Positions 1 to 8,892 of a DNA stretch of 8,892 nucleotides are shown piece by piece. The stretch is from assembly GCA_964591795.1 (NCBI GenBank), contig CAZQEL010000026.1:1-8892 (forward strand), in the 5' to 3' direction. This DNA comes from an uncultured archaeon (GTDB lineage Archaea; Iainarchaeota; Iainarchaeia; Iainarchaeales; CSSED10-239). Positions within the stretch are counted from its first letter, which is position 1; the number at the start of each line of letters is the position of its first letter. A program made the translations under genes and the position numbers. Below the pieces are notes generated by a model. It worked only from the letters and a program-made list of their open reading frames with translations. It ran no database searches and was not told the DNA's origin.

Positions 1-507
1 CTATAAATTATAATTGTTAATTAGTTTTCTTCCTATCCTGACTGATGGATGAACGATAATATTTTTAAAAAATGAAACGGCTTTTATTTTTTCAAAATTG
101 GAGTATGTCTTAATATGTTTTTTGTTCTTATCACCAATAATTTTAGCCCATGTCCCAACAGCTCCTATTTCAGGATGTTTGTCCATAAATTTGACTTGAA
201 TTCCTAATCTTTTTGGTAAACTAATATCATCAGCGTCCATTCGAGCGATATATTCACTTTGGGAAATAGATATTCCTTTGTTTAAAGATTTTGTTAATCC
301 TAAATTTTCTTTGTTTTCGATCAATTTAATTCGATGATCATTAAAAGAATTAATTATATTTTTACTATTATCTGTTGAAGCATCGTTAATAATCAAAAAT
401 TCAAAATTGGTGAAGGTTTGATTAAGAATACTTTCAAGTGCTTCTTTTAGGTATTTTTCACCGTTGTATACTGGCATTAAAATTGTCACCTTTGAGTTTA
501 TTTTCAT
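1..507 (-). CDS. Family 2 glycosyltransferase (GT-A fold), only 168 aa; apparently C-terminally truncated and possibly a pseudogene or split gene
   Basis: The N-terminus VTILMPVYNGEKYLKEALESILNQTFTNFEFLIINDASTDNS is the classic GT2 nucleotide-binding signature. ARMDADD supplies the DxD motif, and HPSVRIGRK matches the usual HPSVMIRK-type acceptor-loop region. The frame ends LINNYNL-TAG with the stop at nt 1-3, about where typical 250-330 aa GT2 enzymes continue. ATG is at 505-507. Confidence 0.8.
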   Translation of the reverse strand: MKINSKVTILMPVYNGEKYLKEALESILNQTFTNFEFLIINDASTDNSKNIINSFNDHRIKLIENKENLGLTKSLNKGISISQSEYIARMDADDISLPKRLGIQVKFMDKHPEIGAVGTWAKIIGDKNKKHIKTYSNFEKIKAVSFFKNIIVHPSVRIGRKLINNYNL

Positions 508-609: not shown

Positions 610-2061
610 ATGTTATTTAACTCTATACATTTTTTATTATTTTTTCCCCTAATAGTAGTTATATATTTTAGTCTTCCACATAAATTTAGGTGGGTGGTTC
701 TTCTAATTAGTAGTTATTATTTTTATATGAGTTGGAAGTTAGAGTATATATTAATTATAATATTTTCTACTTTAGTTAATTATGTATTAGGTTTACAAAT
801 ATATAAATCAAAAAATAATAGTTATCGTAAAAAGTTATTGTATTTAGGGATCTTTGCAAACGTTGGGCTATTGTTTGTATTTAAATATTTTAATTTCTTT
901 AATGAATCAGTTCGAGAACTGTTAGAATTGTTTAGTCTTCCCTTAAACCCTTTAACTTTGAAAATTTTGTTGCCGATCGGAATATCTTTTTACACATTTC
1001 AAGCACTGGGTTATATAATTGATGTTTATCGTAGAAAAATTGTACCAGAAAAACATTTAGGTATTTTTGCTGTTTACATATCTTATTTTCCTCAACTTGT
1101 TGCTGGTCCAATCGAAAGGGCCAAGAACCTTATCCCGCAGTTTTATGAAAAGCACTATTTTGATTATCAAAGAATAACTGATGGTCTTAAATTAATGCTG
1201 TGGGGTTTTTTTAAGAAAGTTGTAATTGCTGACAGGCTAGCTGTGACCGTTGATGCTGTTTATAATAATGTAGGGGATTATACTGGTTTAGCTCTTATTA
1301 TTGCAACTATATTTTTTGCTTTTCAAATATATTGTGATTTTTCTGGATACTCTGATATTGCAATTGGAGCCTCTCAGGTTATGGGAATTAGGCTAATGAA
1401 TAACTTTAAAAGACCTTATTTTTCACAATCAATGTCTGAATTTTGGAAAAGATGGCATATTTCTCTTTCATCGTGGTTTAGGGATTATATATATATTCCC
1501 CTTGGGGGGAACAGAGTTTCAGTTTCACGATTGTTTTTTAATTTATTAATTGTGTTTTTGATATGTGGTTTGTGGCATGGTGCTGAATGGACTTTTGTTA
1601 TTTGGGGCTTTCTTCATGGGTTTTATCTGATTTTTGGTATTTTTACTAAAAAAGTTAGACATAACTTTGTTAGAAAAATTAGGTTAAATAGATTTCCCAA
1701 ATTGTATAAAATAATAAAAATTGTGTTAGTTTTTATATTGACTGATATAGCGTGGGTGTTCTTTAGGGCAAATTCGCTATCAGATGCTTTTTATGTTTTA
1801 ATCAATATGTTTCGTGATATTTCTTTTAATATTCCCATTGTGTTTAATACTCATTTAACATGGTTGGGATTGGTTTATTGCCTTGGTATTATTGGTTTTA
1901 TGGAAGTTATTCATTTAATTCAAACACGGGTTCAGATAAGGTTCTTTCTTTCAACAAAACCCATTGTTCTTAGATGGTCTATTTATTTTATTGTGATTAT
2001 CGTGATTTTATTGTTTGGAATGTTCGATAAGAGTACAGAATTTATTTATTTTCAATTTTAA
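610..2061 (+). CDS. MBOAT-family membrane-bound O-acyltransferase (AlgI/DltB/PatA-like), probable polysaccharide O-acetyltransferase
   Basis: 483 aa and polytopic-hydrophobic throughout. It has the typical MLFNS...FLLFFP N-terminus, YFPQLVAGPIER, the hallmark FWKRWHISLSSWFRDYIYIPLGGNR block (~1441-1515) with the catalytic His, and a second conserved GLWHGAEWTFVIWGFLHG block. Confidence 0.93.
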   Translation: MLFNSIHFLLFFPLIVVIYFSLPHKFRWVVLLISSYYFYMSWKLEYILIIIFSTLVNYVLGLQIYKSKNNSYRKKLLYLGIFANVGLLFVFKYFNFFNESVRELLELFSLPLNPLTLKILLPIGISFYTFQALGYIIDVYRRKIVPEKHLGIFAVYISYFPQLVAGPIERAKNLIPQFYEKHYFDYQRITDGLKLMLWGFFKKVVIADRLAVTVDAVYNNVGDYTGLALIIATIFFAFQIYCDFSGYSDIAIGASQVMGIRLMNNFKRPYFSQSMSEFWKRWHISLSSWFRDYIYIPLGGNRVSVSRLFFNLLIVFLICGLWHGAEWTFVIWGFLHGFYLIFGIFTKKVRHNFVRKIRLNRFPKLYKIIKIVLVFILTDIAWVFFRANSLSDAFYVLINMFRDISFNIPIVFNTHLTWLGLVYCLGIIGFMEVIHLIQTRVQIRFFLSTKPIVLRWSIYFIVIIVILLFGMFDKSTEFIYFQF

Positions 2062-2064
2062 ATT

Positions 2065-3060
2065 ATGAAAAATAACAAGATAAAGTTTATTAAACAAAGT
2101 ATTTTATTTATCTGTATTTTAAGTGTTTTTATTTTTGGGTTAAATTTTATATGGTTAGAATCAATACAAAAAAGCAAGAACATCTTTAGAGGGGAAGAAA
2201 TTTATATCAACTACATTAAAACCCTTGGAGATAAAAAAATAGATTTAGCTTTTTTTGGTGATTCTCATACACAGGATGCGGTTAATCCTGATTACATTAA
2301 AAACTCCTTTAATTTTGGTTTCCCAAGCGAGAATTTTGTTGAAATTTATTATAAGTTAAAGAGAATTATAGAAGAAGATGATATTTTGATAAAAAGTATT
2401 GTTTTAGAAATTGATTGGCATATATTTTCTGATAAAAGAGCTCAGGAACATGGTCTTTTTAAAGAGATTCCATTTTATTTAAGGTTTGTTTCGTTGTTTG
2501 ATATGGCGGAATTGAAACAGAAATCTTTATTTAACATTTTTATTCAGGGATATTTTCCATTTTTAGGAAATGGAGAAAAAATGGTTAGATATTTTTTACA
2601 GGATCGTTCTAACTTAACACCTATTTATCTTGGATGGGCTGAAAAAATAGGGGATTTCTCTTTATATAAGAATAAGAAAAAAGTTGCTCTTGAAAGAGTA
2701 AACTATTTTTTTGATGATGGTATTGCTAAAATAAACGAGCAGGTTTTTGATTATTTCCTAAAATCAATTCAACTAGCAAAAGAAAATGGAATTAATGTTG
2801 TAGTTATAAAATATCCACTTTCAAAAGAATATGATGATGCTATATCAAATATTGGGATTAAGGATATAGAAAAAGATTACTATTCAAAAATATTTAATGG
2901 TATAGAATCAAAGTTAGGTAAAGATTATAGTTTACTGGATTATTACGATGTATTTTTTGATCATTCTGAATATTTTTCGAATTCTGATCACTTGAATAAG
3001 ATAGGTGCAAGTAAATTATCAAATATGATTTCTGAAGCTTTAGTATTACTAGATTTATAA
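2065..3060 (+). CDS. Membrane-anchored partner of the MBOAT; SGNH/DltD/AlgJ-like acyl-transfer protein (family not confidently assigned)
   Basis: The ATG lies 3 nt after the MBOAT stop. There is a single N-terminal hydrophobic helix (SILFICILSVFIFGLNFIWL, ~2095-2157). A FFGDSHTQ motif (GDSH at 2257-2268) resembles SGNH block I, and the C-terminal NSDHLNKIGA (DH at 2986-2991) resembles the Asp/His block of DltD/AlgJ-type proteins. The gene order MBOAT then periplasmic partner is conserved in AlgI-AlgJ, PatA-PatB and DltB-DltD. Confidence 0.6.
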   Translation: MKNNKIKFIKQSILFICILSVFIFGLNFIWLESIQKSKNIFRGEEIYINYIKTLGDKKIDLAFFGDSHTQDAVNPDYIKNSFNFGFPSENFVEIYYKLKRIIEEDDILIKSIVLEIDWHIFSDKRAQEHGLFKEIPFYLRFVSLFDMAELKQKSLFNIFIQGYFPFLGNGEKMVRYFLQDRSNLTPIYLGWAEKIGDFSLYKNKKKVALERVNYFFDDGIAKINEQVFDYFLKSIQLAKENGINVVVIKYPLSKEYDDAISNIGIKDIEKDYYSKIFNGIESKLGKDYSLLDYYDVFFDHSEYFSNSDHLNKIGASKLSNMISEALVLLDL

Positions 3061-3070
3061 GACAAAAGTT

Positions 3071-3919
3071 TTATATTCTTAACCAGCAGTTAGGTAGAAG
3101 GTCAATTGTATCTTTATTGGGTTTAATAAACCATTTTTGAGGGGAGATGATTATTTTATTCGTGTTTTGATTTAACCAAGCTGCCCACCAACTAAAAGTA
3201 CTGTTGGCGATAATGTTATGTTTACATTTACTCATTAGAATTAGTTCTTCATAATCTTTTGTATTTTCTATAAAAGTAATAGGAAATTTAATTATTAAAT
3301 TTTTTTTACACCATTTTAGATCATCAGAAAAGATAAAAAAATGAGGATTAGAAATTTTCTCAGATATTTTTTTTATAGCTTTGTTGTAGTAACCTAAAGA
3401 ACAAGAGTGGTAAACATCTTTTTTTGTTTCTATATAATCAGTCCTCCTTACGTGTAGTGAAATAGAATTATTATTGATTATTTGTTTTTTAATATTGTTA
3501 TTCAGTTTAATTTTTAAAGTGAATTCTTCTCGAATTATATTTTCAATCTCTTTAAAATATTTTTCGTTTTGCCAATGTCCATCTAAGTAGTTATTTTTTA
3601 GATTTCTTTTTTTGTTCTTTTTTGTTTTAAATTTAGATTCTTCAATGTAAATTGAATTATCAGCAAAAAATAAGTTATGAAAAAAATATTTTTTATTATT
3701 TTTAAATTCGTATTTTTTAATTTTTTTTATTTCTTCATCTGTTGCAATATTTTCAACAATATTAAAATTTCCTAAGGAGTAATTTCTAACTTCATTTTTT
3801 TGACGATAGGATGATAAATCAAGTTTTAATATAGTATTGTCCTTATAGGCCAAATTTCTTCCCATTGCGTACTGAAACATTTGATTCCCTAATCCTCCTT
3901 GTAATTTTGTTATAATCAT
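3071..3919 (-). CDS. GT11 alpha-1,2-fucosyltransferase
   Basis: All three GT11 signature blocks are present: MIITKLQGGLGNQMFQYA at the N-terminus, SLHVRRTDY (~3434-3454) and ANSTFSWWAAWLN. I place the start at the ATG at 3917-3919 (MIITKL...), which forms an ATGA overlap with the upstream stop. The ORF track's longer start at 3952 would add 11 non-conserved residues and a 37-nt overlap. Confidence 0.9.
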   Translation of the reverse strand: MIITKLQGGLGNQMFQYAMGRNLAYKDNTILKLDLSSYRQKNEVRNYSLGNFNIVENIATDEEIKKIKKYEFKNNKKYFFHNLFFADNSIYIEESKFKTKKNKKRNLKNNYLDGHWQNEKYFKEIENIIREEFTLKIKLNNNIKKQIINNNSISLHVRRTDYIETKKDVYHSCSLGYYNKAIKKISEKISNPHFFIFSDDLKWCKKNLIIKFPITFIENTKDYEELILMSKCKHNIIANSTFSWWAAWLNQNTNKIIISPQKWFIKPNKDTIDLLPNCWLRI

Positions 3920-4647
3920 TTTTTTGTAGCTAATATGTGCAATCCGAAACAAAGTAACTCTTCAGATTTTTTATTTTCTCTTGATAATTTATTTAACAAT
4001 CTTAAAATAATTTTAAAACCTATCTTATTAAAAAGTTTTTTTGATATATCCAGTTTGGTGTACTGTTTCTCTATTTTCGGAATTCGTCTAATTTCCTGAG
4101 CTAAATATTCGAAAAAGTTTCCGTTAAATTCAATTTTATTGATTTCAAAACTATTTTCTTTGAGTACTTTTTCATACCAATATTTACTGTATCCATTAGC
4201 AAAATAATAAGGGGCATAATGTGTTAAGGAACAGAAAGGGGCTGTTATGATTAATTTTCCTGTTGGTTTCAATATTCTAGAAAACTCTTTTATAGCATCT
4301 ATCGGTTTTGGGAGGTGTTCTAATACCTCAACACACATGATTGCATCATACTCTTCATTTTTCACAGGAATATCAGTGATATCTGAAATTATATCTATTT
4401 CAGTGGAGTCTCTTTTTTTGGTTTGAAGACCTTCACTGTTTCCTTTTCCGTCATATTGTCCAAAGTCTTGACTAGTATAATTAAGATGATTACAAAATTT
4501 TTTATATTGTAATTCTCCAGCCCCTGCATCTAAAATTTTGTAGTTTTTTGTGATTTGCCGAAGTGTTTTTTCTAACCATGATTCTCTAGTTTTTTTATTT
4601 TTTTTGCCGACGTCGCTGTCTATATTTTTTTTTATTTTTTTAAACAT
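3916..4647 (-). CDS. Class I SAM-dependent methyltransferase (Methyltransf_11/23-like)
   Basis: Motif I is KILDAGAGELQ (~4513-4536). The post-I/II region is YDAIMCVEVLEHLPKP, followed by LKPTGKLIITAP. Size (243 aa) and motif order fit small-molecule or sugar methyltransferases. Confidence 0.87.
   Translation of the reverse strand: MFKKIKKNIDSDVGKKNKKTRESWLEKTLRQITKNYKILDAGAGELQYKKFCNHLNYTSQDFGQYDGKGNSEGLQTKKRDSTEIDIISDITDIPVKNEEYDAIMCVEVLEHLPKPIDAIKEFSRILKPTGKLIITAPFCSLTHYAPYYFANGYSKYWYEKVLKENSFEINKIEFNGNFFEYLAQEIRRIPKIEKQYTKLDISKKLFNKIGFKIILRLLNKLSRENKKSEELLCFGLHILATKK
4625..4641. repeat. Homopolymer pair T9-A-T7 (A7-T-A9 on the coding strand) at codons 3-8 of the stand-alone methyltransferase
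   Basis: Counted directly: T run 4625-4633 (9), A at 4634, T run 4635-4641 (7). The coding strand reads ATG TTT AAA AAA ATA AAA AAA AAT = MFKKIKKN. Confidence 0.95.
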
Positions 4648-4669
4648 AATTTAAATTTAAAATTGTTTT

Positions 4670-5446
4670 TTAATCGATATCTTGATGTATTTTAAAACCA
4701 TAATATTTGCTAAAAATCGTGTTTACTATTTTAAATTTGTGGGCTAACACAGATAGAGTGGCTTGATCTTGTCTGTGATTATTTCTGTTACTTCCTTCGG
4801 GTGCAATACATTTTTTTTCTAGAGCGCATTTTTCCCATTTATATACAACATTCCTAACATTATTATTTTTGTAATTTATTGCAATGCAAGCACCATTTAA
4901 ATTTTGTTTGGAAAGTAATTTTTTAGAGATACCAATAAACTTAAGTGTTTTCGGATGAGTCCATTCAGATATCCTTCCACTAGAGTAGGGAGAATAAAAA
5001 CCAACAAGGTTCATTATTTTTTTTATAATACTTAAAGGCGATGTAATCACGTTTCCTGCATCCATCCAACAAACACTACATCTATACTCGTTTAATATCT
5101 CTATAATTATAACAGGTTTCCATGCATATTCTCCCGCATTTATATTTACGTTAAAATATTCTGGATATTTTGAATAATTGAATGACCTTATCTCTATTTC
5201 CTTAAATCTATTTTTAAGTTTATTTCTTTCTAAGAGAGTCATTCCCAAATCAAAAACAATTGTTTTTGTAAATGGTTCATGTAAATGAATACTAGATAAT
5301 AATTGCTTAAGACTTTTATAGTGAGAACTATCTGTTCCTGTTACTATTATAAATTCTTTATTGTGTATTCTTTTAGTAAAAATAAGCGAACTTAATCTTA
5401 GAGAGTGTCTAAATTTATTAATGTTTTTTTTAAAAATATTATCCAT
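4670..5446 (-). CDS. Uncharacterised 258-aa protein; possible nucleotide-sugar-transferase-like enzyme (tentatively DUF1647-like)
   Basis: The long ORF sits in operon context, 12 nt after the upstream gene and 22 nt before the next. No TM segment is obvious. It shows a Rossmann-like start FIIVTGTDSSHYKSLKQLLSSI, then GEYAWKPVII, CWMDAGNV and NHRQDQATLSVL, which I recall from DUF1647-type putative glycosyltransferases. The family call is from memory only. Confidence 0.45.
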   Translation of the reverse strand: MDNIFKKNINKFRHSLRLSSLIFTKRIHNKEFIIVTGTDSSHYKSLKQLLSSIHLHEPFTKTIVFDLGMTLLERNKLKNRFKEIEIRSFNYSKYPEYFNVNINAGEYAWKPVIIIEILNEYRCSVCWMDAGNVITSPLSIIKKIMNLVGFYSPYSSGRISEWTHPKTLKFIGISKKLLSKQNLNGACIAINYKNNNVRNVVYKWEKCALEKKCIAPEGSNRNNHRQDQATLSVLAHKFKIVNTIFSKYYGFKIHQDID

Positions 5447-5458
5447 TATTATGGTAGT

Positions 5459-7225
5459 TTAAATTCTATTCATAAAGATATTGTTATGACCAACTATACC
5501 TATATGTATAAGTTCTTTCATTGCATATTTTTTGACTACATCGCTTGGACCAGGATGGCCTGCTGATGAAAAGAAAGGGGGGATAAAAGAAGTTCCTAAT
5601 GAAGAATCATCAAAAATCAATAAACCTTTTTCTGATAGTGATTTTTTACAGAGTTTATAGTCAGCTAAAACAGTATCATAATCGTGGTCACCGTCTATGT
5701 ATATCAGATCCCATTTTTTTGATTTAATAAATTCGATTGCTTTTTTATCTGTAGATAAGGCTTTAACTAGATTGACTTCAGGTAATTTAAAATGTTTAAA
5801 TGATTTTTTTATATCCTTTTCGTAATCTATGTTTTTTATGTAAGAACTTACTGAATCCTTAGTTGATTTTAATGGTGATATTCCATTGACTTCACAATTA
5901 AACTTTAAATATTTTGCTATTAAAGTCCATAAAGAAATTACTTGTCCTCTGTAGACGCCTATTTCTAAACAGTGTTTTGGTTTAAATTCTTTTAATAAAA
6001 GCCACCACATGGAATGAAAAGAGTCCTCTCCAAATCCTCTTTTTTCTTTTTTAAAATAAGAACGATGTCGACGTATTTTTTTAGGTAATAAATGGTAAAA
6101 ATAATGATGCATAAATAAATAAATTTTATTGGGGTGTTTGAAATTTTTTATAGCATTTGTAAAGTTTAAATTAAGATTAAAATTTTTGTTAAACTGTTTA
6201 TAGGGTGTAAGTTTTTGCCTTTCATTAAGTATATTTTTATACAATTTTAATTTTAGTAAAATTTTATTTGTAAATTTATTTTTATTAAGTTTCTTTTTTA
6301 TTTTGTCTATTAGAATAGATTTATTTTTGTTGTTTAAGGATATTTTTTTTGTATTATCTATTGGGCAGTTATTTAATTTGGCTGTAGGTATACCAGGTAT
6401 TTTATAAATAGTATTATTTTTTTCTTGATTAATTATTTTTAATAGATCTTTCCTGTTCCATTTTTTTATGTTGTTTATGTTTCTTCTAATTATTTTACCC
6501 ATTTCTGGTTGGTGGGTAGTTCGAGTTCCTCCCCATTTTAGCTCTGAGTGAAATTTTAATGCAAAAACACCATTTTTAAAACCAGCTTTACGGCATCTAA
6601 TAGCATATTCTAGGTCGTCATGTCCGTATGGTGCCAATTTTTCTTCCAATAATCCTATTTTTTTTATAACATAAAAAGGAAAACATACCGGACTTTTTAT
6701 TGATATATCTCGATATGAAAAATGGTTTGGTACAAGGGTTTCTGCATAGTCTAATCCATGTCCATATATACTTTCTAGATGATCGGTTTGAGGTATAAGA
6801 TAATCAGACTTTAAAATGTTATTAGCAAAATTGGCTCCTAATCTAAAAGAAATGCATCCAAGTTTTTTTCCTCCCCATTGATATAATTTAATTATATTAT
6901 TTTCTAATTCAAGATCGTCTAAGATTACATCATCTTGTAATATTATATTAAATCCATCTCCATTTTGATTTGTTTTTTTTAATCCTATGTTTATTGATAA
7001 TAATTCATGAACATCGGATGCATATACCTTTTTTATAGGGATGTTGATATTTTTTTTAATTATTGAATCAATAATTTTTTCTGTTTTATCTGTACACCCA
7101 TCAAGTACAGGGTATATAAAACTATTACTTCTACAACTATCTAAAATAGAGGTAAGAACATTTTCAATTAAATCTTCTTTATTGTGTATTGTTATTATGT
7201 AATTAAATCTGGGAAGTTTTTTCAT
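5459..7225 (-). CDS. Bifunctional fusion: N-terminal GT2-like glycosyltransferase, Lys/Asn/Leu-rich linker, and C-terminal class I SAM methyltransferase (Methyltransf_24/CmcI-like)
   Basis: N-terminal domain (~6434-7207): YIITIHNKEDLIENVLTSIL, VLDGCTDKTEKII, the DxD motif ILQDDVILDD (QDD at 6929-6937) and YGHDDLEYAIRCRKAGF. C-terminal domain (~5462-6046): RGFGEDSFHSMWW, CLEIGVYRGQVISLW and WDLIYIDGDHDYDTVLADYKLC..GLLIFDDS (DGDH at 5684-5695). I prefer the start at ATG 7223-7225 (TGATG overlap with the upstream stop) over the TTG at 7226-7228 used by the ORF track. Confidence 0.85.
   Translation of the reverse strand: MKKLPRFNYIITIHNKEDLIENVLTSILDSCRSNSFIYPVLDGCTDKTEKIIDSIIKKNINIPIKKVYASDVHELLSINIGLKKTNQNGDGFNIILQDDVILDDLELENNIIKLYQWGGKKLGCISFRLGANFANNILKSDYLIPQTDHLESIYGHGLDYAETLVPNHFSYRDISIKSPVCFPFYVIKKIGLLEEKLAPYGHDDLEYAIRCRKAGFKNGVFALKFHSELKWGGTRTTHQPEMGKIIRRNINNIKKWNRKDLLKIINQEKNNTIYKIPGIPTAKLNNCPIDNTKKISLNNKNKSILIDKIKKKLNKNKFTNKILLKLKLYKNILNERQKLTPYKQFNKNFNLNLNFTNAIKNFKHPNKIYLFMHHYFYHLLPKKIRRHRSYFKKEKRGFGEDSFHSMWWLLLKEFKPKHCLEIGVYRGQVISLWTLIAKYLKFNCEVNGISPLKSTKDSVSSYIKNIDYEKDIKKSFKHFKLPEVNLVKALSTDKKAIEFIKSKKWDLIYIDGDHDYDTVLADYKLCKKSLSEKGLLIFDDSSLGTSFIPPFFSSAGHPGPSDVVKKYAMKELIHIGIVGHNNIFMNRI
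6125..6382 (-). other. Low-complexity basic linker (about aa 283-368) between the GT2 and methyltransferase domains of the fusion protein
   Basis: The translation reads ...KKISLNNKNKSILIDKIKKKLNKNKFTNKILLKLKLYKNILNERQKLTPYKQFNKNFNLNLNFTNAIKNFKHPNK... It has no catalytic motifs, and hydrophobic residues recur at i/i+3/i+4 spacing among Lys/Asn, which suggests amphipathic helix or coiled coil. Boundaries are approximate. Confidence 0.5.
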
Positions 7226-8217
7226 CAATTAATTATAGAATTTAAATCATTTAACCATGCTTCACATATAGTCAATTCATCACTTTTTATATAGTTATTT
7301 CTTTCAAGTTCTTTATAGATACTTTTTAGGTTTTCTTTATAATCTCCCTCTAATTTAATTTCGTCTAAAATTTTTATAATTGCTTTTATATTTAAATAAA
7401 TTTCAATCTCATCATCAAAGTCTTTCATTAAATTATGGCTATTACGGTTTTGATAAACTGTTGCTTTTGTAAAACCTAGATGTAATTGTTCCTCCCAAAA
7501 TAATCTTTGAGCAATATATCCTCTTAAGATATCAGTGAATCTAAAACTTACAGTTGAAGGTAAATACATAGAATAAAAAACTTTTTTATTCCAAGTTGTG
7601 TTTTGTGAGTTAAAAGGACAATATGTGTTTTTATTTAGAGCAATTGGTTTTTTGTTGTTAAATTTTATTTTTTTGTTGTTAGTTAATCTATAGATAGCGT
7701 CAACATCAGGATCGATATCAGCTAGTCCTTGCCAGGCTCCTATTTTTAATTCAGTTTGGTGTTCTTTTTTTAATTTTTGTATTTTGTTAATTTCATTCAA
7801 TGGATATCCTCTTGGCCATATTTTTTTTCTTGTAAAATATGTGTAAATATTAAGAAATTTGTTATTATTTTTTATTAAATTGTTTGTTTTGAATTCAGGG
7901 AAAGACCAATTATTATAAGGGGTGTTATCGTCATCAGTATCATAAATGATATCAGCACCTAAACTAATAGCGTAAAGATATCCAATATTTTTTCTTGAAT
8001 AATGGTTGTATGGTAAGTATTTTATTACTTCAAAATCTAGTTTGTTTTGATCTTTGACAGATAAAAAAATAATGTTATCCTCGTTTTTAATTTGTTTACT
8101 TTTTTTATCACCAACTAAAATTATTTTCCAATCTTTGAATTCAGAAAATTTTTTAATAGCATCAGTTTTTTTGTTTATTGTGGTTATTACTATGAATTTT
8201 TTTTGTTTTTTTTCCAT
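7225..8217 (-). CDS. STELLO/DUF288-like putative glycosyltransferase
   Basis: 330 aa. The motifs FIVITTINKKT, WKIILVGDKKS, YSRKNIGYLYAISLGADIIYDTDDDN (DTDDD at 7927-7941) match the pattern I recall for the DUF288 (STELLO) glycosyltransferase-like family, which is related to GT75-type enzymes. The gene lies 4 nt downstream of wzt, and its TGA overlaps the next ATG. Confidence 0.6.
   Translation of the reverse strand: MEKKQKKFIVITTINKKTDAIKKFSEFKDWKIILVGDKKSKQIKNEDNIIFLSVKDQNKLDFEVIKYLPYNHYSRKNIGYLYAISLGADIIYDTDDDNTPYNNWSFPEFKTNNLIKNNNKFLNIYTYFTRKKIWPRGYPLNEINKIQKLKKEHQTELKIGAWQGLADIDPDVDAIYRLTNNKKIKFNNKKPIALNKNTYCPFNSQNTTWNKKVFYSMYLPSTVSFRFTDILRGYIAQRLFWEEQLHLGFTKATVYQNRNSHNLMKDFDDEIEIYLNIKAIIKILDEIKLEGDYKENLKSIYKELERNNYIKSDELTICEAWLNDLNSIIN
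8197..8213. repeat. Homopolymer pair T8-G-T8 (A8-C-A8 on the coding strand) at codons 2-7 of the STELLO-like gene
   Basis: Counted directly: T run 8197-8204 (8), G at 8205, T run 8206-8213 (8). The coding strand reads ATG GAA AAA AAA CAA AAA AAA TTC = MEKKQKKF. Confidence 0.95.
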
Positions 8218-8221
8218 TTTT

Positions 8222-8892
8222 CTATTTTATATTTATATTTCCATCAAGTATTTGATATCCAGCACCTCTCATATCTGCTTCAAAGGTTTTTCCTTCTTGA
8301 AATGAATAACCTAGAATATTTAGATTAACAGCATTTTTAATAATAACATGACTTTCTATTCCTGGATTAGTAAGGTTAAAATCTAGTAAATACTTACCTT
8401 TATTGAGTTTTGGAAGTTTTATTTCTGCTGTTAAAAGGTGTTTTCCTGGAGAGCAAAAAAAAATGTTGTCTTCAGGTTTTGTATGGCCTGGTACACAAAC
8501 AGCTATGTGATTTCCCAGATTATCTTTTAAATGTGTTTCCAGGGTTATTTCTTCTTCTTCTTTTGTTTCAAAGTTTATTTTAATTTCTAAAGACGATGGT
8601 AATGAGGGTATTTTAACTCTTTTTTTATGAGAATCATTACAAGTTATTTTTTGTAATTTGATATTTTTATTTTTATAAAATGTATTATCAATTATTTCTT
8701 CTAATTCTTCTTCTTTATTTATTGCTTCGTTATTTAAGTATGTATCAATAACATCTTTTGTTTCACCGATCATTTTTATTTTTCCTTCTTCAATAAGAAT
8801 ACATCTTTTGCAGAGGTTTTGGATGGCGGTGAGGTTATGGCTGACGAAGAGGATGGTTCTTCCTTCTTCTCCTGTAACTTCGTCCATTTTGC
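8222..8892 (-). CDS. wzt: ABC-transporter ATP-binding protein, Wzt/TagH type (5'-partial; N-terminus lies beyond the right edge), with a C-terminal extension
   Basis: The frame stays open to the window edge (..AKMDEV..). The visible N-terminal part, GRTILFVSHNLTAIQNLCKRCILIEEGKIKMIGETKDVIDTYL, is the H-loop and C-terminal end of a polysaccharide-exporter NBD. Walker A/B and the signature motif must lie outside the window. About 165 further residues (8225-8730) show alternating beta-strand-like patterns typical of Wzt C-terminal glycan-binding domains. Confidence 0.85.
   Translation of the reverse strand, partial: KMDEVTGEEGRTILFVSHNLTAIQNLCKRCILIEEGKIKMIGETKDVIDTYLNNEAINKEEELEEIIDNTFYKNKNIKLQKITCNDSHKKRVKIPSLPSSLEIKINFETKEEEEITLETHLKDNLGNHIAVCVPGHTKPEDNIFFCSPGKHLLTAEIKLPKLNKGKYLLDFNLTNPGIESHVIIKNAVNLNILGYSFQEGKTFEADMRGAGYQILDGNINIK

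What the first reader, a model, noticed from the sequence alone, without database searches (positions are those of the whole stretch)
3071..8892. Compact ABC-transporter-dependent glycan operon: extended Wzt plus two methyltransferases, with no recognisable WbdD/WbbB-type terminator
Six co-directional genes are packed with 4, 12 and 22 nt gaps plus TGATG and ATGA overlaps, so they are almost certainly one transcript.

In the established E. coli O9a and Klebsiella O12 paradigm, a Wzt with a C-terminal carbohydrate-binding domain exports only chains that carry a non-reducing-end cap. That cap is a methyl-phosphate added by WbdD or a beta-Kdo added by WbbB, and the capping enzyme also sets chain length through a coiled-coil ruler.

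Here an extended Wzt is followed by four transferase-like proteins and two SAM methyltransferase domains. I see no kinase domain, no GT99-like module and no long canonical coiled coil. One methyltransferase may therefore supply a methyl cap that the Wzt extension reads, in a much smaller and differently built terminator system.

No Wzx/Wzy/Wzz, initiating phosphoglycosyltransferase or GDP-fucose synthesis genes lie in the window, so they must be elsewhere.
Basis: partly seen in the sequence, partly recalled or inferred. Interest (0 to 1): 0.7.

Follow-up and report, generated by a model that had tools for sequence, protein, structure and literature searches.

The report
Cell-surface glycan export operon, CPR bacterium
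This is the back end of a wzm-wzt sugar-chain export operon from a probable Patescibacteria (CPR) genome, with a real cap-reading-type domain on the transporter and a fused sugar-transferase/methyltransferase as the likeliest cap writer; it is a variant of a known scheme, not a new one.

Summary
Six co-directional minus-strand genes sit with exactly the stated junctions, and all six have homologues.

The Wzt extension is a genuine but divergent Wzt-type carbohydrate-binding beta-sandwich. Pfam scores it below threshold. An AlphaFold2 model matches only solved Wzt CBDs at the top of the Foldseek list.

No kinase, GT99 module or long coiled coil exists here or within 10 kb in syntenic loci. Those loci supply the missing wzm, and one also has gmd/fcl.

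The interpretation needs four corrections:
- The host is probably a monoderm Paceibacterota-like CPR bacterium, so the product is not an LPS O antigen.
- The "STELLO" gene resembles the GT75 GDP-L-fucose/galactose pyranose-to-furanose mutase MtdL and keeps 12 of 14 of its active-site residues. It is probably a donor-making mutase, not a transferase.
- The small methyltransferase (g5) is a window-specific insertion. The conserved candidate cap writer is the GT2-methyltransferase fusion (g3).
- Ruler-less methyltransferase-GT terminators next to wzm-wzt are already known (WsaE, the P. syringae TET operon).

Fused g3 relatives also occur in Wzx/Wzz-type loci, so a capping role remains unproven.

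The parts
8726..8892 (-). wzt, 3' part: C-terminal ~55 residues of the ABC nucleotide-binding domain. The gene continues beyond the contig end.
   Evidence: NCBIfam TagH/Wzt-type NBD hits over residues 1-74. 67% and 60% identical over the whole fragment to the full-length 427- and 422-aa Wzt of L006 and L007. The L007 Wzt hits A. aeolicus Wzt 8dku at E 2.5e-72.
8222..8725 (-). wzt, 3' end: linker helix plus a divergent Wzt-type carbohydrate-binding beta-sandwich (CBD), including the stop codon. The clade shares the C-terminal motif GAGYQ(I/V)LDG.
   Evidence: Pfam Wzt_C E 7.5e-5, 23.2 bits, below the 30.4 cut-off, covering model positions 6-130 of 143. The 8-sequence profile hits A. aeolicus CBD crystals 8dky/6o14 at E 2e-8. 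AlphaFold2 model pLDDT 76.7, with 80-92 across most of the sandwich. Top 14 Foldseek hits are all Wzt: 8dl0 at E 4.5e-9, then 6o14, 5hno and 2r5o with TM 0.58-0.66.
7225..8217 (-). g2: 330-aa GT75/STELLO-superfamily protein, a probable Mn-dependent NDP-sugar (GDP-L-fucose?) pyranose-to-furanose mutase.
   Evidence: Pfam STELLO 42.7 bits, C-terminal part only. phmmer to MtdL (7yua/7xpr) E 4.4e-18 over g2 residues 62-303. 12 of 14 annotated MtdL active-site residues conserved, including DDDN 95-98 and Arg136; His287 is replaced by Gln256 and Asp87 by Tyr73. 1,017 clusters of relatives at E<=1e-30.
6401..7225 (-). g3 N-terminal domain (aa 1-275): GT-A fold, GT2-like glycosyltransferase.
   Evidence: Pfam Glycos_transf_2 22.0 bits, cut-off 23.3. 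Highly conserved family, also found as stand-alone ~325-aa proteins. AlphaFold2 pLDDT mostly above 85. Foldseek hits GT-A enzymes: PcManGT, SpsA, WrtF fucosyltransferase, TarS.
6236..6400 (-). g3 linker (aa 276-330): about 25 disordered residues followed by short Lys-rich helices. Length varies among homologues. Not a coiled-coil ruler.
   Evidence: pLDDT below 50 for residues 283-308; the longest helix in the protein is 317-338, 22 aa. Linker columns are poorly conserved and differ by roughly 30-40 residues in length. No heptad signal in this stretch.
5459..6235 (-). g3 C-terminal domain (aa 331-588) plus stop codon: helical cap and Rossmann SAM-dependent sugar O-methyltransferase.
   Evidence: Pfam Methyltransf_24 42.6 bits; weak RMNT_CmcI 19.1 bits and NCBIfam rhamnosyl O-methyltransferase 19.5 bits. 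The closest methyltransferase fold is M. hassiacum MeT1 (6g80/6g7d), TM 0.65-0.69. The same domain exists as a ~268-aa stand-alone protein in 69 of the 91 loci scored (153 relatives found in genomes).
4670..5446 (-). g4: 258-aa DUF1647 protein of unknown activity, conserved directly after g3 in all ABC-type syntenic loci.
   Evidence: Pfam DUF1647 53.2 bits. Orthologues in L002, L006-L010, L007 and L012. No match to any solved structure.
3916..4647 (-). g5: 243-aa class I SAM methyltransferase, inserted between g4 and g6 only in this contig.
   Evidence: Pfam Methyltransf_11 47.9 bits, Methyltransf_23 40 bits. g4 is followed directly by GT11 in L002, L007, L008 and L012. The methyltransferases of those loci share only ~30% identity over ~65 residues with g5. 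No WbdD among its PDB hits.
3071..3919 (-). g6: 282-aa GT11 alpha-1,2-fucosyltransferase-family protein, last gene of the operon.
   Evidence: Pfam Glyco_transf_11 116.6 bits. HVRRTD (HxRRxD) motif at residue 156. Orthologues in L002, L007, L008 and L012.

Best explanation
Window 3071-8892 is the distal part of a wzm-wzt-led operon from a probable Paceibacterota-like (CPR/Patescibacteria) bacterium. The operon builds and exports a fucose-containing, O-methylated cell-surface glycan by the ABC-transporter-dependent route.

**Proposed pathway (inferred)**
1. The chain is assembled on a polyprenyl-phosphate carrier at the cytoplasmic face of the membrane.
2. GDP-L-fucose comes from gmd/fcl, which sit immediately upstream of wzm in one syntenic locus.
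3. GDP-L-fucose is used directly by the GT11 enzyme g6.
4. It is also probably converted by g2, a GT75-like mutase, into a furanose donor.
5. The GT-A domain of g3 transfers a sugar, and its fused C-terminal domain O-methylates a sugar.
6. g4 (DUF1647) contributes an unknown step.
7. g5 adds a strain-specific extra methyl group.

**Export (inferred)**
Wzt carries a real carbohydrate-binding beta-sandwich. By analogy with every studied CBD-bearing Wzt, export is therefore most likely gated by recognition of a non-reducing-end structure.

The likeliest writer of that structure is g3. The cap would be a methylated terminal sugar, made without kinase, GT99 module or coiled-coil ruler. This resembles WsaE in the Geobacillus S-layer glycan pathway.

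**What is shown and what is inferred**
- Shown: gene order, domain identities, the CBD fold, absence of canonical terminators, synteny and the presence of upstream wzm.
- Inferred: the mutase activity of g2, the identity of the cap, which methyltransferase writes it, gating by the CBD, and the final acceptor (wall, S-layer protein or lipid; not LPS).

**Sub-probabilities**
- The CBD is a glycan-binding, export-gating module: about 0.75.
- The cap contains a methyl group written by g3: about 0.45.
- g2 is a pyranose mutase: about 0.55.
For: - **Operon layout:**
- **CBD:**
- **Synteny:** L006/L008/L009/L010/L012 (Ca. Paceibacterota MAGs; g3 69% identical over its full length, 74% over the MT domain) read wzm-wzt(427 aa)-g2-g3-g4-GT11. 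L007 reads gmd-fcl-wzm-wzt-g2-g3-g4-GT11.
- **Co-conservation:** L002 keeps a Wzt 84% identical to that of L007, followed directly by g3-g4-GT11 without g2 or g5. So g3, g4 and g6 are what travels with this CBD clade.
- **Same CBD subfamily elsewhere:** the subfamily sharing the AGYQILDG C-terminus recurs in a cyanobacterial MAG (L030, 30% identity end to end). That locus has a stand-alone g3C-type methyltransferase about 1 kb downstream and otherwise unrelated GTs. In L094 the CBD is followed by an ORF 48% identical to the FkbM-like domain that is fused to the same GT2 family in P0108.
- **g3 architecture:**
- **g2 resembles MtdL:**, with PMC9937993.
- **gmd/fcl near the module:** they sit beside g2 and/or g3N in L003/L004, L005, L007, L011, L014, L018, L037 and L093.
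- **Precedents for methyltransferase-GT terminators:**
- **No coiled coil, kinase or large multidomain protein** within +/-10 kb in L008.
Against: - Fused g3 relatives (46-50% identical) lie in loci marked by Wzx (Polysacc_synt), Wzy_C or Wzz, where no chain terminator is expected. In L003/L004 and L005 they lie next to a g2 homologue.
- Of the 80 best genomic loci with the g3C methyltransferase, only 3 have Wzm/Wzt within 10 kb. In L062 and L092 the Wzt extension shows no similarity to this CBD.
- The clade's CBD is below the Pfam threshold. A profile built from the clade alone does not find solved CBDs.
- g2 lacks the Mn-coordinating His (Gln256 instead) and matches the Pfam STELLO model, not RGP.
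- L002 has g3 without g2.
- Chain-length control is unexplained.
- Host assignment rests on homologue taxonomy only.
Confidence: 0.55

Rival explanations
1. Both methyltransferases only decorate internal residues. g2-g3 is a mobile 'add a methylated (furanose) sugar' cassette that works with any export route. The Wzt CBD reads an unmethylated terminal sugar, such as an alpha-1,2-fucose added by GT11 or a residue added by a GT outside the window. Alternatively, it merely tethers the chain.
For: Fused g3 relatives, with a g2 homologue alongside in L003/L004 and L005, occur in Wzx/Wzy_C/Wzz loci. 77 of 80 genomic methyltransferase loci lack Wzm/Wzt nearby. GT11 is co-conserved with this CBD clade within Paceibacterota.
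Against: The same CBD subfamily in L030 has the g3C-type methyltransferase but no GT11, g2 or g3N. In L094 the same CBD is followed by a methyltransferase-like ORF. In studied CBD systems the cap is a distinct terminal modification (PMC11231755).
Confidence: 0.3
2. The small stand-alone methyltransferase g5 writes the cap that the Wzt extension reads. This is one of the two options the first reader left open.
For: It is a bona fide class I SAM methyltransferase inside the operon. The window's CBD differs by about 40% from CBDs of loci that lack g5, so co-variation cannot be excluded.
Against: g5 is absent from all syntenic loci that keep the same CBD clade. The other loci's methyltransferases are not its orthologues. 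It shows no similarity to WbdD.
Confidence: 0.08
3. g2 is a true glycosyltransferase, as its 'STELLO' name suggests, and not a sugar-nucleotide mutase. The operon would then have four transferases.
For: The only Pfam hit above threshold is STELLO. The Mn-ligand His287 of MtdL is Gln in g2 and across its family. GT75 proteins also autoglycosylate (PMC9937993). g2-like domains are fused to various GT domains.
Against: Direct similarity to MtdL is E 4.4e-18, with the DxD motif, the catalytic Arg and 10 further ligand-binding residues conserved. gmd/fcl recur next to the g2 and/or g3N module even where no GT11 is present. Fusion to GTs is equally expected for an enzyme that makes the donor.
Confidence: 0.35
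4. The operon makes a classical LPS O antigen in a diderm host, as in the E. coli O9a / Klebsiella O12 paradigm.
For: The Wzm/Wzt-CBD system is best known from LPS. Related g2-g3 cassettes occur in diderm phyla.
Against: The closest relatives of every gene examined come from Ca. Paceibacterota / Patescibacteria MAGs. CPR are placed within Terrabacteria, described as monoderm and atypical monoderm lineages (bioRxiv 10.1101/2020.07.15.205187); that CPR themselves lack an outer membrane and LPS synthesis is my background knowledge, not tested here. No WaaL- or Lpt-type gene lies in the syntenic 21-kb loci.
Confidence: 0.07

Closest known systems
E. coli O9a/O8 (= Klebsiella O3/O5) WbdD terminator with Wzt-CBD
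   Same: ABC-transporter route. Wzt carries a C-terminal beta-sandwich, and the fold matches 2r5o. Termination by methylation is plausible, and the O8/O5 cap is methyl only.
   Different: No kinase, no coiled-coil ruler and no WbdD homology. The candidate methyltransferase is CmcI/MeT1-like and fused C-terminally to a GT-A domain. The host is probably monoderm, so there is no LPS.
Klebsiella O12 WbbB (GT99 beta-Kdo terminator, coiled coil, polymerase) with Wzt-CBD (5hno)
   Same: CBD fold (TM about 0.6). The terminator and a GT lie in one polypeptide.
   Different: No GT99, no Kdo chemistry and no coiled coil. g3 has a single GT domain.
WsaE and wzm-wzt of the Geobacillus stearothermophilus NRS 2004/3a S-layer glycan cluster (PMC2943079)
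   Same: Monoderm host. Tightly packed wzm-wzt followed by a methyltransferase-GT fusion. An O-methyl cap on a 6-deoxyhexose is proposed as the export signal. [quoted passage not shown]
   Different: The domain order is reversed and the domains differ: WsaE has an N-terminal methyltransferase plus two rhamnosyltransferase domains. Sequence relatedness was not tested. Here a mutase-like gene sits between wzt and the fusion, and the chemistry is fucose rather than rhamnose.
Pseudomonas syringae CPA 'TET' operon (PMC7820976)
   Same: wzm-wzt(CBD)-O-methyltransferase-GT in one operon. The GT and methyltransferase are fused in some isolates. The methyltransferase is proposed as the terminator.
   Different: It is an LPS common antigen (rhamnan) with GT4 polymerases, in a diderm host.
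Aquifex aeolicus WzmWzt (7k2t, 8dku, 6o14)
   Same: Best sequence and structural match for both the NBD tail and the CBD.
   Different: 22-24% identity in the aligned region. The clade here has its own conserved C-terminal GAGYQ(I/V)LDG strand.
MtdL / Hyg20, GT75 GDP-L-galactose / GDP-L-fucose pyranose mutases of antibiotic pathways (PMC9937993)
   Same: g2 aligns over about 240 residues at E 4e-18 and keeps 12 of 14 active-site residues. A GDP-L-fucose supply is encoded alongside.
   Different: g2 matches the Pfam STELLO model, not RGP. Gln replaces the Mn-ligand His, and Tyr replaces Asp87. It lies in a surface-glycan locus, not a secondary-metabolite cluster. [quoted passage not shown]
Rhizobium tropici WrtF O-antigen system (PMC12595478)
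   Same: A GT-A-fold fucosyltransferase in a wzm/wzt operon with gmd/fcl and a CBM-bearing Wzt whose terminator is unidentified. WrtF is among the structural neighbours of the g3 GT domain.
   Different: The similarity is generic GT-A (14-16% identity, TM about 0.6). There is no fused methyltransferase.

Membership tests
Wzt with C-terminal carbohydrate-binding domain (Pfam PF14524 Wzt_C) | Wzt/TagH-type ABC nucleotide-binding domain immediately N-terminal to the extension | tested here: met
   NCBIfam TagH/Wzt hits on residues 1-74. Full-length syntenic orthologues match 8dku at E 2.5e-72.
Wzt with C-terminal carbohydrate-binding domain (Pfam PF14524 Wzt_C) | Pfam Wzt_C match at the gathering threshold | tested here: not met
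   23.2 bits against a 30.4 cut-off in the window. 25.7 and 28.6 bits in L008 and L007.
Wzt with C-terminal carbohydrate-binding domain (Pfam PF14524 Wzt_C) | Beta-sandwich fold superposable on solved Wzt CBDs | tested here: met
   AlphaFold2 pLDDT 76.7. Top 14 Foldseek hits are all Wzt; 6o14, 5hno and 2r5o give TM 0.58-0.66 normalised to the target. The 8-sequence profile hits 8dky/6o14 at E 2e-8.
Wzt with C-terminal carbohydrate-binding domain (Pfam PF14524 Wzt_C) | Adjacent wzm (ABC-2 permease) gene | tested here: inconclusive
   The contig ends inside wzt. wzm lies directly upstream in L006-L010, L012 and L007.
Wzt with C-terminal carbohydrate-binding domain (Pfam PF14524 Wzt_C) | Binds the non-reducing terminal cap and is required for export | not testable with these tools
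   Needs binding and export assays.
WbdD-type terminator | Kinase domain (O9a type) and N-terminal methyltransferase homologous to WbdD | tested here: not met
   No kinase family in any protein. Neither g5 nor g3 hits WbdD structures.
WbdD-type terminator | Extended coiled-coil ruler | tested here: not met
   The longest helix in the g3 model is 22 aa. No heptad signal in the linker. The other proteins are 243-330 aa and mostly filled by their catalytic domains. None in L008 +/-10 kb.
WbbB-type terminator | GT99 beta-Kdo transferase module plus coiled coil | tested here: not met
   No such domain by Pfam or NCBIfam. The g3 fold neighbours are GT-A/GT2 and small-molecule or sugar methyltransferases.
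WsaE-like methyltransferase-glycosyltransferase terminator | Methyltransferase and GT domains in one polypeptide encoded next to wzm-wzt | tested here: met
   g3 has GT-A at 1-275 and a methyltransferase at 331-588. It lies one gene after wzt here and directly after wzt in L002.
WsaE-like methyltransferase-glycosyltransferase terminator | Sequence homology to WsaE; methylation of the terminal residue | not tested
The activity needs biochemistry.
GT75 NDP-pyranose mutase (g2) | Significant similarity to a characterised member, with DxD and the catalytic Arg | tested here: met
   MtdL at E 4.4e-18. D95/D96/D97/N98, R136, D171, S204, Q205, R226, D229, R258 and H261 are conserved.
GT75 NDP-pyranose mutase (g2) | Mn2+-coordinating His (MtdL His287) and a Pfam RGP match | tested here: not met
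   His287 is replaced by Gln256. Pfam gives STELLO, not RGP; an L069 homologue hits RGP only weakly, 14.7 bits.
GT75 NDP-pyranose mutase (g2) | Pyranose/furanose interconversion activity | not testable with these tools
   Needs an enzyme assay with GDP-L-Fuc or GDP-L-Gal.
GT11 alpha-1,2-fucosyltransferase (g6) | Pfam PF01531 above threshold and the HxRRxD motif | tested here: met
   116.6 bits against 23.9. HVRRTD at residue 156.
GT2 / GT-A glycosyltransferase (g3 N-terminal domain) | GT-A fold with an acidic DxD-like motif | tested here: met
   Pfam 22.0 bits, just under the 23.3 cut-off. The model is confidently GT-A and hits GT2 structures. LQDDV and DGCTD are invariant or nearly invariant.
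LPS O-antigen pathway | Diderm host with lipid A-core acceptor and WaaL ligase | not tested
   The contig has no taxonomic marker. The closest homologues are from Paceibacterota/Patescibacteria.

The most novel reading that the evidence does not exclude
g2 plus g3 is a widespread, uncharacterised three-activity cassette: a GT75-type GDP-L-fucose pyranose-to-furanose mutase, a furanosyltransferase and an O-methyltransferase. It installs an O-methyl-L-fucofuranose (or a related furanose) on bacterial surface glycans.

In Paceibacterota this residue would be the chain-terminating cap. A distinct Wzt CBD subfamily, marked by the GAGYQILDG C-terminus, would read it. That would give a ruler-less termination/export checkpoint in monoderm CPR bacteria.

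It would also be the first role for a GT75 mutase outside plant cell walls and antibiotic pathways.
Probability: 0.2. Interest if true: 0.65.

Novelty: new variant of a known kind. Interest (0 to 1): 0.42.

Why it matters
The polymerase-terminator-CBD checkpoint is the accepted logic for ABC-transporter-dependent glycans. All biochemically defined Klebsiella and E. coli terminators sit in coiled-coil ruler proteins (PMC11231755).

This locus extends the ruler-less methyltransferase-GT type, known from WsaE and the P. syringae TET operon, to candidate-phyla-radiation bacteria. Their envelope glycans are essentially unknown, yet they presumably mediate episymbiotic contact.

The locus also points to a large family: 1,017 clusters at E<=1e-30 of GT75/STELLO-like proteins in surface-glycan loci. 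These may make furanose donors from GDP-L-fucose. That is directly testable with recombinant protein.

For annotation, the practical points are:
- 'STELLO glycosyltransferase' is probably a misleading name for g2.
- The Wzt_C Pfam model misses this CBD clade.

Tried and rejected
- **Extending the contig.** The window is the whole 8,892-bp record. The only other contig with identical g2 is 2.2 kb.
- **CBD alone against PDB by phmmer, and a 3-sequence clade-only profile.** No Wzt hit. Only the anchored alignment, the broader profile and the fold search detect the relationship.
- **Third word-indexed protein search with the CBD profile.** Only 9 hits, of little use.
- **AlphaFold2 with syntenic Wzt rows.** Rerun with permitted hits.
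- **Metagenome scans with CBD patterns.** The first found nothing and the second found one 1.3-kb contig.
- **Iterative HMM for Wzx across the 80 genome loci.** It did not converge beyond the seeds. I therefore make no count of Wzx-type contexts in that set; only Wzm/Wzt counts are given.
- **Amphipathic-helix and heptad scans of the g3 linker.** Nothing distinctive, so no membrane-anchor claim is made.
- **g5 as orthologue of the methyltransferases in L007/L008.** Rejected.
- **L011 388-aa and L002 upstream ORFs as g2 homologues.** Rejected. The L002 ORF is Wzt itself.
- **Wall teichoic acid export (TagGH).** Considered and rejected. The loci have no Pfam TagF/TagB-type glycerophosphotransferase hit, and the extension has the Wzt CBD fold.
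- **Rfam.** No RNA family in the window.
- **Promoter and terminator scans.** Uninformative at 26% GC.
- **Mann et al. 2019 survey of CBM/terminator diversity.** Could not be read because it is not held.

Full report
**1. The observation**

The window is AT-rich, with GC 0.20-0.32 throughout. Six co-directional ORFs lie on the minus strand between 3071 and 8892. I read the junctions from the reverse-complemented sequence:
- wzt ends TAG, then 4 nt, then the g2 ATG.
- g2 and g3 overlap as TGATG.
- g3 and g4 are 12 nt apart.
- g4 and g5 are 22 nt apart.
- g5 and g6 overlap as ATGA.

The TTG starts in the mechanical ORF list for g3 and g6 are upstream artefacts; homologues align from the ATG. No terminator-like hairpin exists anywhere in the window, and promoter-like matches do not exceed shuffled expectation. 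The protein search shows the window is an entire 8,892-bp NCBI contig. wzt is therefore truncated by the assembly and there is no flank of its own to inspect. The only other contig with identical g2 is 2.2 kb.

**2. What the six genes are**

Pfam and NCBIfam give:

| Gene | Size | Assignment |
|---|---|---|
| wzt fragment | 222 aa | Wzt/TagH-type NBD tail plus a sub-threshold Wzt_C match (23.2 bits, cut-off 30.4) |
| g2 | 330 aa | 'STELLO', matched only over its C-terminal third |
| g3 | 588 aa | weak GT2 at the N-terminus, Methyltransf_24 at the C-terminus, faint rhamnosyl-O-methyltransferase/CmcI signal |
| g4 | 258 aa | DUF1647 |
| g5 | 243 aa | ordinary class I SAM methyltransferase (Methyltransf_11/23) |
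| g6 | 282 aa | GT11, 116.6 bits, with the HxRRxD motif HVRRTD |

No kinase, GT99, Wzx, Wzy, Wzz, initiating transferase or gmd/fcl lies in the window.

**3. Is the Wzt extension a CBD?**

The extension searched alone finds nothing in the PDB by phmmer. A profile of only the three closest sequences also fails, so the clade is divergent.

Three other results agree that it is a CBD:
- The fragment anchored on its NBD tail aligns through the whole A. aeolicus Wzt CBD (8dku, residues 190-375, E 6e-8).
- An eight-sequence profile of C-terminal regions hits the isolated A. aeolicus CBD crystals 8dky/6o14 at E about 2e-8.
- An AlphaFold2 model (29-row alignment, mean pLDDT 76.7, with 80-92 across most of the sandwich) returns only Wzt proteins as its top 14 Foldseek PDB hits. 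These are A. aeolicus WzmWzt (E 4.5e-9) and the isolated CBDs of A. aeolicus (6o14, TM 0.66), Klebsiella/Raoultella O12 (5hno, TM 0.60) and E. coli O9a (2r5o, TM 0.58).

The extension is a Wzt-type carbohydrate-binding beta-sandwich. Within the clade the last strand carries an invariant GAGYQ(I/V)LDG.

**4. Surroundings recovered from relatives**

Several syntenic loci were found.
- Loci with g3 at 69% identity (L006, L008, L009, L010; L012 at 74% over the MT domain) come from Candidatus Paceibacterota MAGs. They read wzm - wzt (427 aa, Wzt_C weak) - g2 - g3 - DUF1647 - GT11 - GT2. A convergent block follows with a GT2, a Methyltransf_23 and four GT1 genes.
- L007 (g3 62% identical) reads gmd - fcl - wzm - wzt - g2 - g3 - DUF1647 - GT11. 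The gmd fragment scores 247 bits. fcl scores 498 bits on the NCBIfam GDP-L-fucose synthase model.
- L002 begins inside a Wzt 84% identical to that of L007, CBD included. It continues directly with g3 - DUF1647 - GT11, without g2.

None of these loci contains g5. Their additional methyltransferases share only generic motifs with it. Within +/-10 kb of L008 there is no protein longer than 593 aa, no kinase and nothing that could hold a coiled-coil ruler.

**5. Host**

Several lines point to a Patescibacteria/CPR origin, most likely Paceibacterota, although the contig carries no marker gene.
- The best matches to the Wzt NBD tail are from 'Patescibacteria group' and 'Candidatus Kaiserbacteria'.
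- The syntenic loci are from Paceibacterota.
- GC is 26%.

CPR are placed within Terrabacteria, described as monoderm and atypical monoderm lineages (bioRxiv 10.1101/2020.07.15.205187). It is established background, not tested here, that CPR lack LPS synthesis. The product is therefore not an O antigen. The apt comparison is the Gram-positive S-layer-glycan type of wzm/wzt cluster.

**6. g3, the GT-methyltransferase fusion**

The AlphaFold2 model (36-row alignment, mean pLDDT 88.3) shows:
- a GT-A domain at residues 1-275;
- a disordered stretch at 283-308;
- a bundle of short helices, the longest 22 residues;
- a Rossmann methyltransferase domain.

Foldseek neighbours of the GT part are generic GT-A/GT2 enzymes, including the GDP-fucose-dependent WrtF. 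The closest methyltransferase is the sugar O-methyltransferase MeT1 of Mycobacterium hassiacum, TM 0.65-0.69.

The linker is poorly conserved and varies by roughly 30-40 residues among homologues. It shows no heptad signal. There is no WbdD/WbbB-like ruler.

The N-terminal GT2 is a very widespread family that mostly occurs as ~325-aa stand-alone proteins. It is also fused to an FkbM-type methyltransferase domain in other proteins such as P0108.

**7. g2 is probably not a transferase**

phmmer against PDB sequences gives one family only: MtdL (7yua/7xpr), at E 4.4e-18 over g2 residues 62-303. MtdL is a GT75 Mn-dependent GDP-L-galactopyranose/GDP-L-fucopyranose mutase. It and Hyg20 are stated to be the only characterised bacterial GT75 members (PMC9937993).

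I mapped the residues that paper describes through the alignment.
- 12 of 14 are conserved in g2: the DDDN motif, the catalytic Arg159 (g2 R136), D195, S228, Q229, R257, D260, R289 and H292.
- Two are changed: D87 to Y73, and the Mn ligand H287 to Q256.

The MtdL segment matched by g2 (residues 76-335, taken from the alignment) falls in Pfam RGP. g2 matches only the start of the STELLO model, and one g2 homologue touches both models.

GDP-L-fucose synthesis genes recur next to g2 and/or the g3 GT2 domain even where no GT11 is present: L003/L004, L005, L011, L014, L018, L037 and L093. This fits GDP-L-fucose being the substrate of this module.

The g2 family is large: 1,017 clusters at E<=1e-30. 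Some members are fused to GT2, O-FucT or other transferase domains.

I rate the mutase reading at about 0.55. The missing His and the STELLO affiliation keep a transferase role open.

**8. Is one methyltransferase the cap writer?**

For g3:
- It is the only methyltransferase co-conserved with this CBD clade, in the window, L006-L012, L007 and L002.
- It follows wzt directly in L002.
- The same CBD subfamily (30% identity end to end, same C-terminal motif) occurs in a cyanobacterial MAG, L030. That locus has a stand-alone g3C-type methyltransferase about 1 kb downstream and an otherwise unrelated set of GTs.
- On a short metagenomic contig (L094) the same CBD is followed by an ORF 48% identical to the methyltransferase-like domain fused to the g3-type GT2 in P0108.

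Against g3:
- Fused g3 relatives (46-50% identical) lie in Wzx-, Wzy_C- or Wzz-marked loci (L003/L004, L005, L011, L093). L003/L004 and L005 also carry g2 homologues at 37-38% identity.
- Among the 80 best genomic loci holding this methyltransferase, 69 of the 91 loci scored have it as a ~268-aa stand-alone gene. Only three have Wzm/Wzt within 10 kb.
- In two loci that pair this methyltransferase with Wzm/Wzt (L062 Opitutaceae; L092 Bacteroidia, which also has g2 and fused g3), the Wzt extension shows no similarity to this CBD.

So the chemistry is not dedicated to termination. At best it has been recruited for it.

g5 is a poor candidate because it is unique to this contig.

**9. Comparison with known systems**

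The logic is that of the polymerase-terminator-CBD pathway: the cap is a prerequisite for export. In all biochemically defined Klebsiella and E. coli cases the terminator sits in a coiled-coil ruler protein (PMC11231755). This locus fails the WbdD and WbbB membership tests.

Ruler-less methyltransferase-GT terminators are not new, however.
- **WsaE of G. stearothermophilus.** It is encoded with overlapping codons after wzm-wzt. It carries a methyltransferase and two rhamnosyltransferase domains and makes the 2-O-methyl cap. It methylates independently of chain length in vitro (PMC2943079).
- **The P. syringae TET operon.** It is wzm-wzt(CBD)-O-methyltransferase-GT, with GT and methyltransferase fused in some isolates (PMC7820976).
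- **R. tropici.** It has a CBM-bearing Wzt with gmd/fcl and a GT-A fucosyltransferase, and its terminator is still unassigned (PMC12595478).

Three things differ here: the domain order and type of the fusion, the mutase-like partner, and the CPR host.

**10. Verdict**

The finding is a new variant of a known kind. It is an ABC-transporter-dependent, probably cap-gated glycan operon with a non-canonical, ruler-less candidate terminator, in a probable CPR bacterium.

The most interesting by-product is the GT75-like mutase/GT2/O-methyltransferase cassette, which is widespread and uncharacterised. Which residue is capped, whether g3 writes the cap, how chain length is set and where the glycan is attached all remain inferences.

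Noticed in passing
window 610-3060 (+): An MBOAT gene sits at 610-2061 (Pfam 101 bits; DltB-like 158 bits, below the cut-off). A DUF1574 protein follows 3 nt after its stop codon, at 2065-3060. This looks like an AlgI/AlgJ- or PatA/PatB-like pair for extracytoplasmic O-acylation. It converges on g6 with only 10 nt between the two stop codons. It is absent from the syntenic loci L007, L008 and L012.
   Followed up: partly
window 1-507 (-): The N-terminal 168 aa of a further GT2 glycosyltransferase (EpsE/TuaG-like, Pfam 130.9 bits), cut by the contig end. It may belong to the same glycan locus.
   Followed up: no
L011 7364-8584 and L093 4139-5359: Two loci have fused g3 and gmd/fcl but no g2. 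In both, a 407-aa FAD/NAD_binding_8 amine-oxidase-like protein lies in the same gene run as gmd/fcl and g3 (directly after fcl in L093). It has weak N-terminal similarity to UDP-galactopyranose mutase (TIGR00031, 54 bits, E 1e-14). It may be a non-orthologous replacement of the GT75-like mutase.
   Followed up: partly
L092 2293-8257 (Bacteroidia MAG GCA_026391235.1): A second, non-CPR instance of the arrangement: wzm - wzt (408 aa) - Methyltransf_21 - g2 - fused g3 (50% identical). The 160-aa Wzt extension has no Pfam Wzt_C hit and no similarity to the window's CBD.
   Followed up: partly
L030 5662-10693 (cyanobacterial MAG) and L094 106-1198: The same CBD subfamily, ending AGYQILDG, appears outside CPR. 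In L030 a stand-alone g3C-type methyltransferase follows. In L094 the next ORF is 48% identical to the FkbM-like domain that is fused to the g3-type GT2 in P0108.
   Followed up: partly
L002 4517-6292: An asparagine-synthase homologue follows GT11 directly. This recalls wsfA, the asparagine-synthase homologue in the Paenibacillus alvei S-layer glycan cluster (PMC2943079).
   Followed up: no
L003, L005, L092, L093, L002: A second methyltransferase of the FkbM type (Methyltransf_21) recurs beside the g2-g3 cassette. The window, L007 and L008 carry a Methyltransf_11/23-type enzyme instead. Two methylations per locus appear to be the rule.
   Followed up: no
L008 4619-6743 and 20510-20911: Toxin-antitoxin-like genes (Zeta_toxin, PemK_toxin) and an LDcluster4 gene flank the Paceibacterota glycan locus. 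This may mark it as a variable or mobile region.
   Followed up: no
window 8054-8305 (+): An 83-aa ORF antisense to the wzt/g2 junction. It is hydrophobic and low-complexity, has no homologue support, and is treated as spurious.
   Followed up: no
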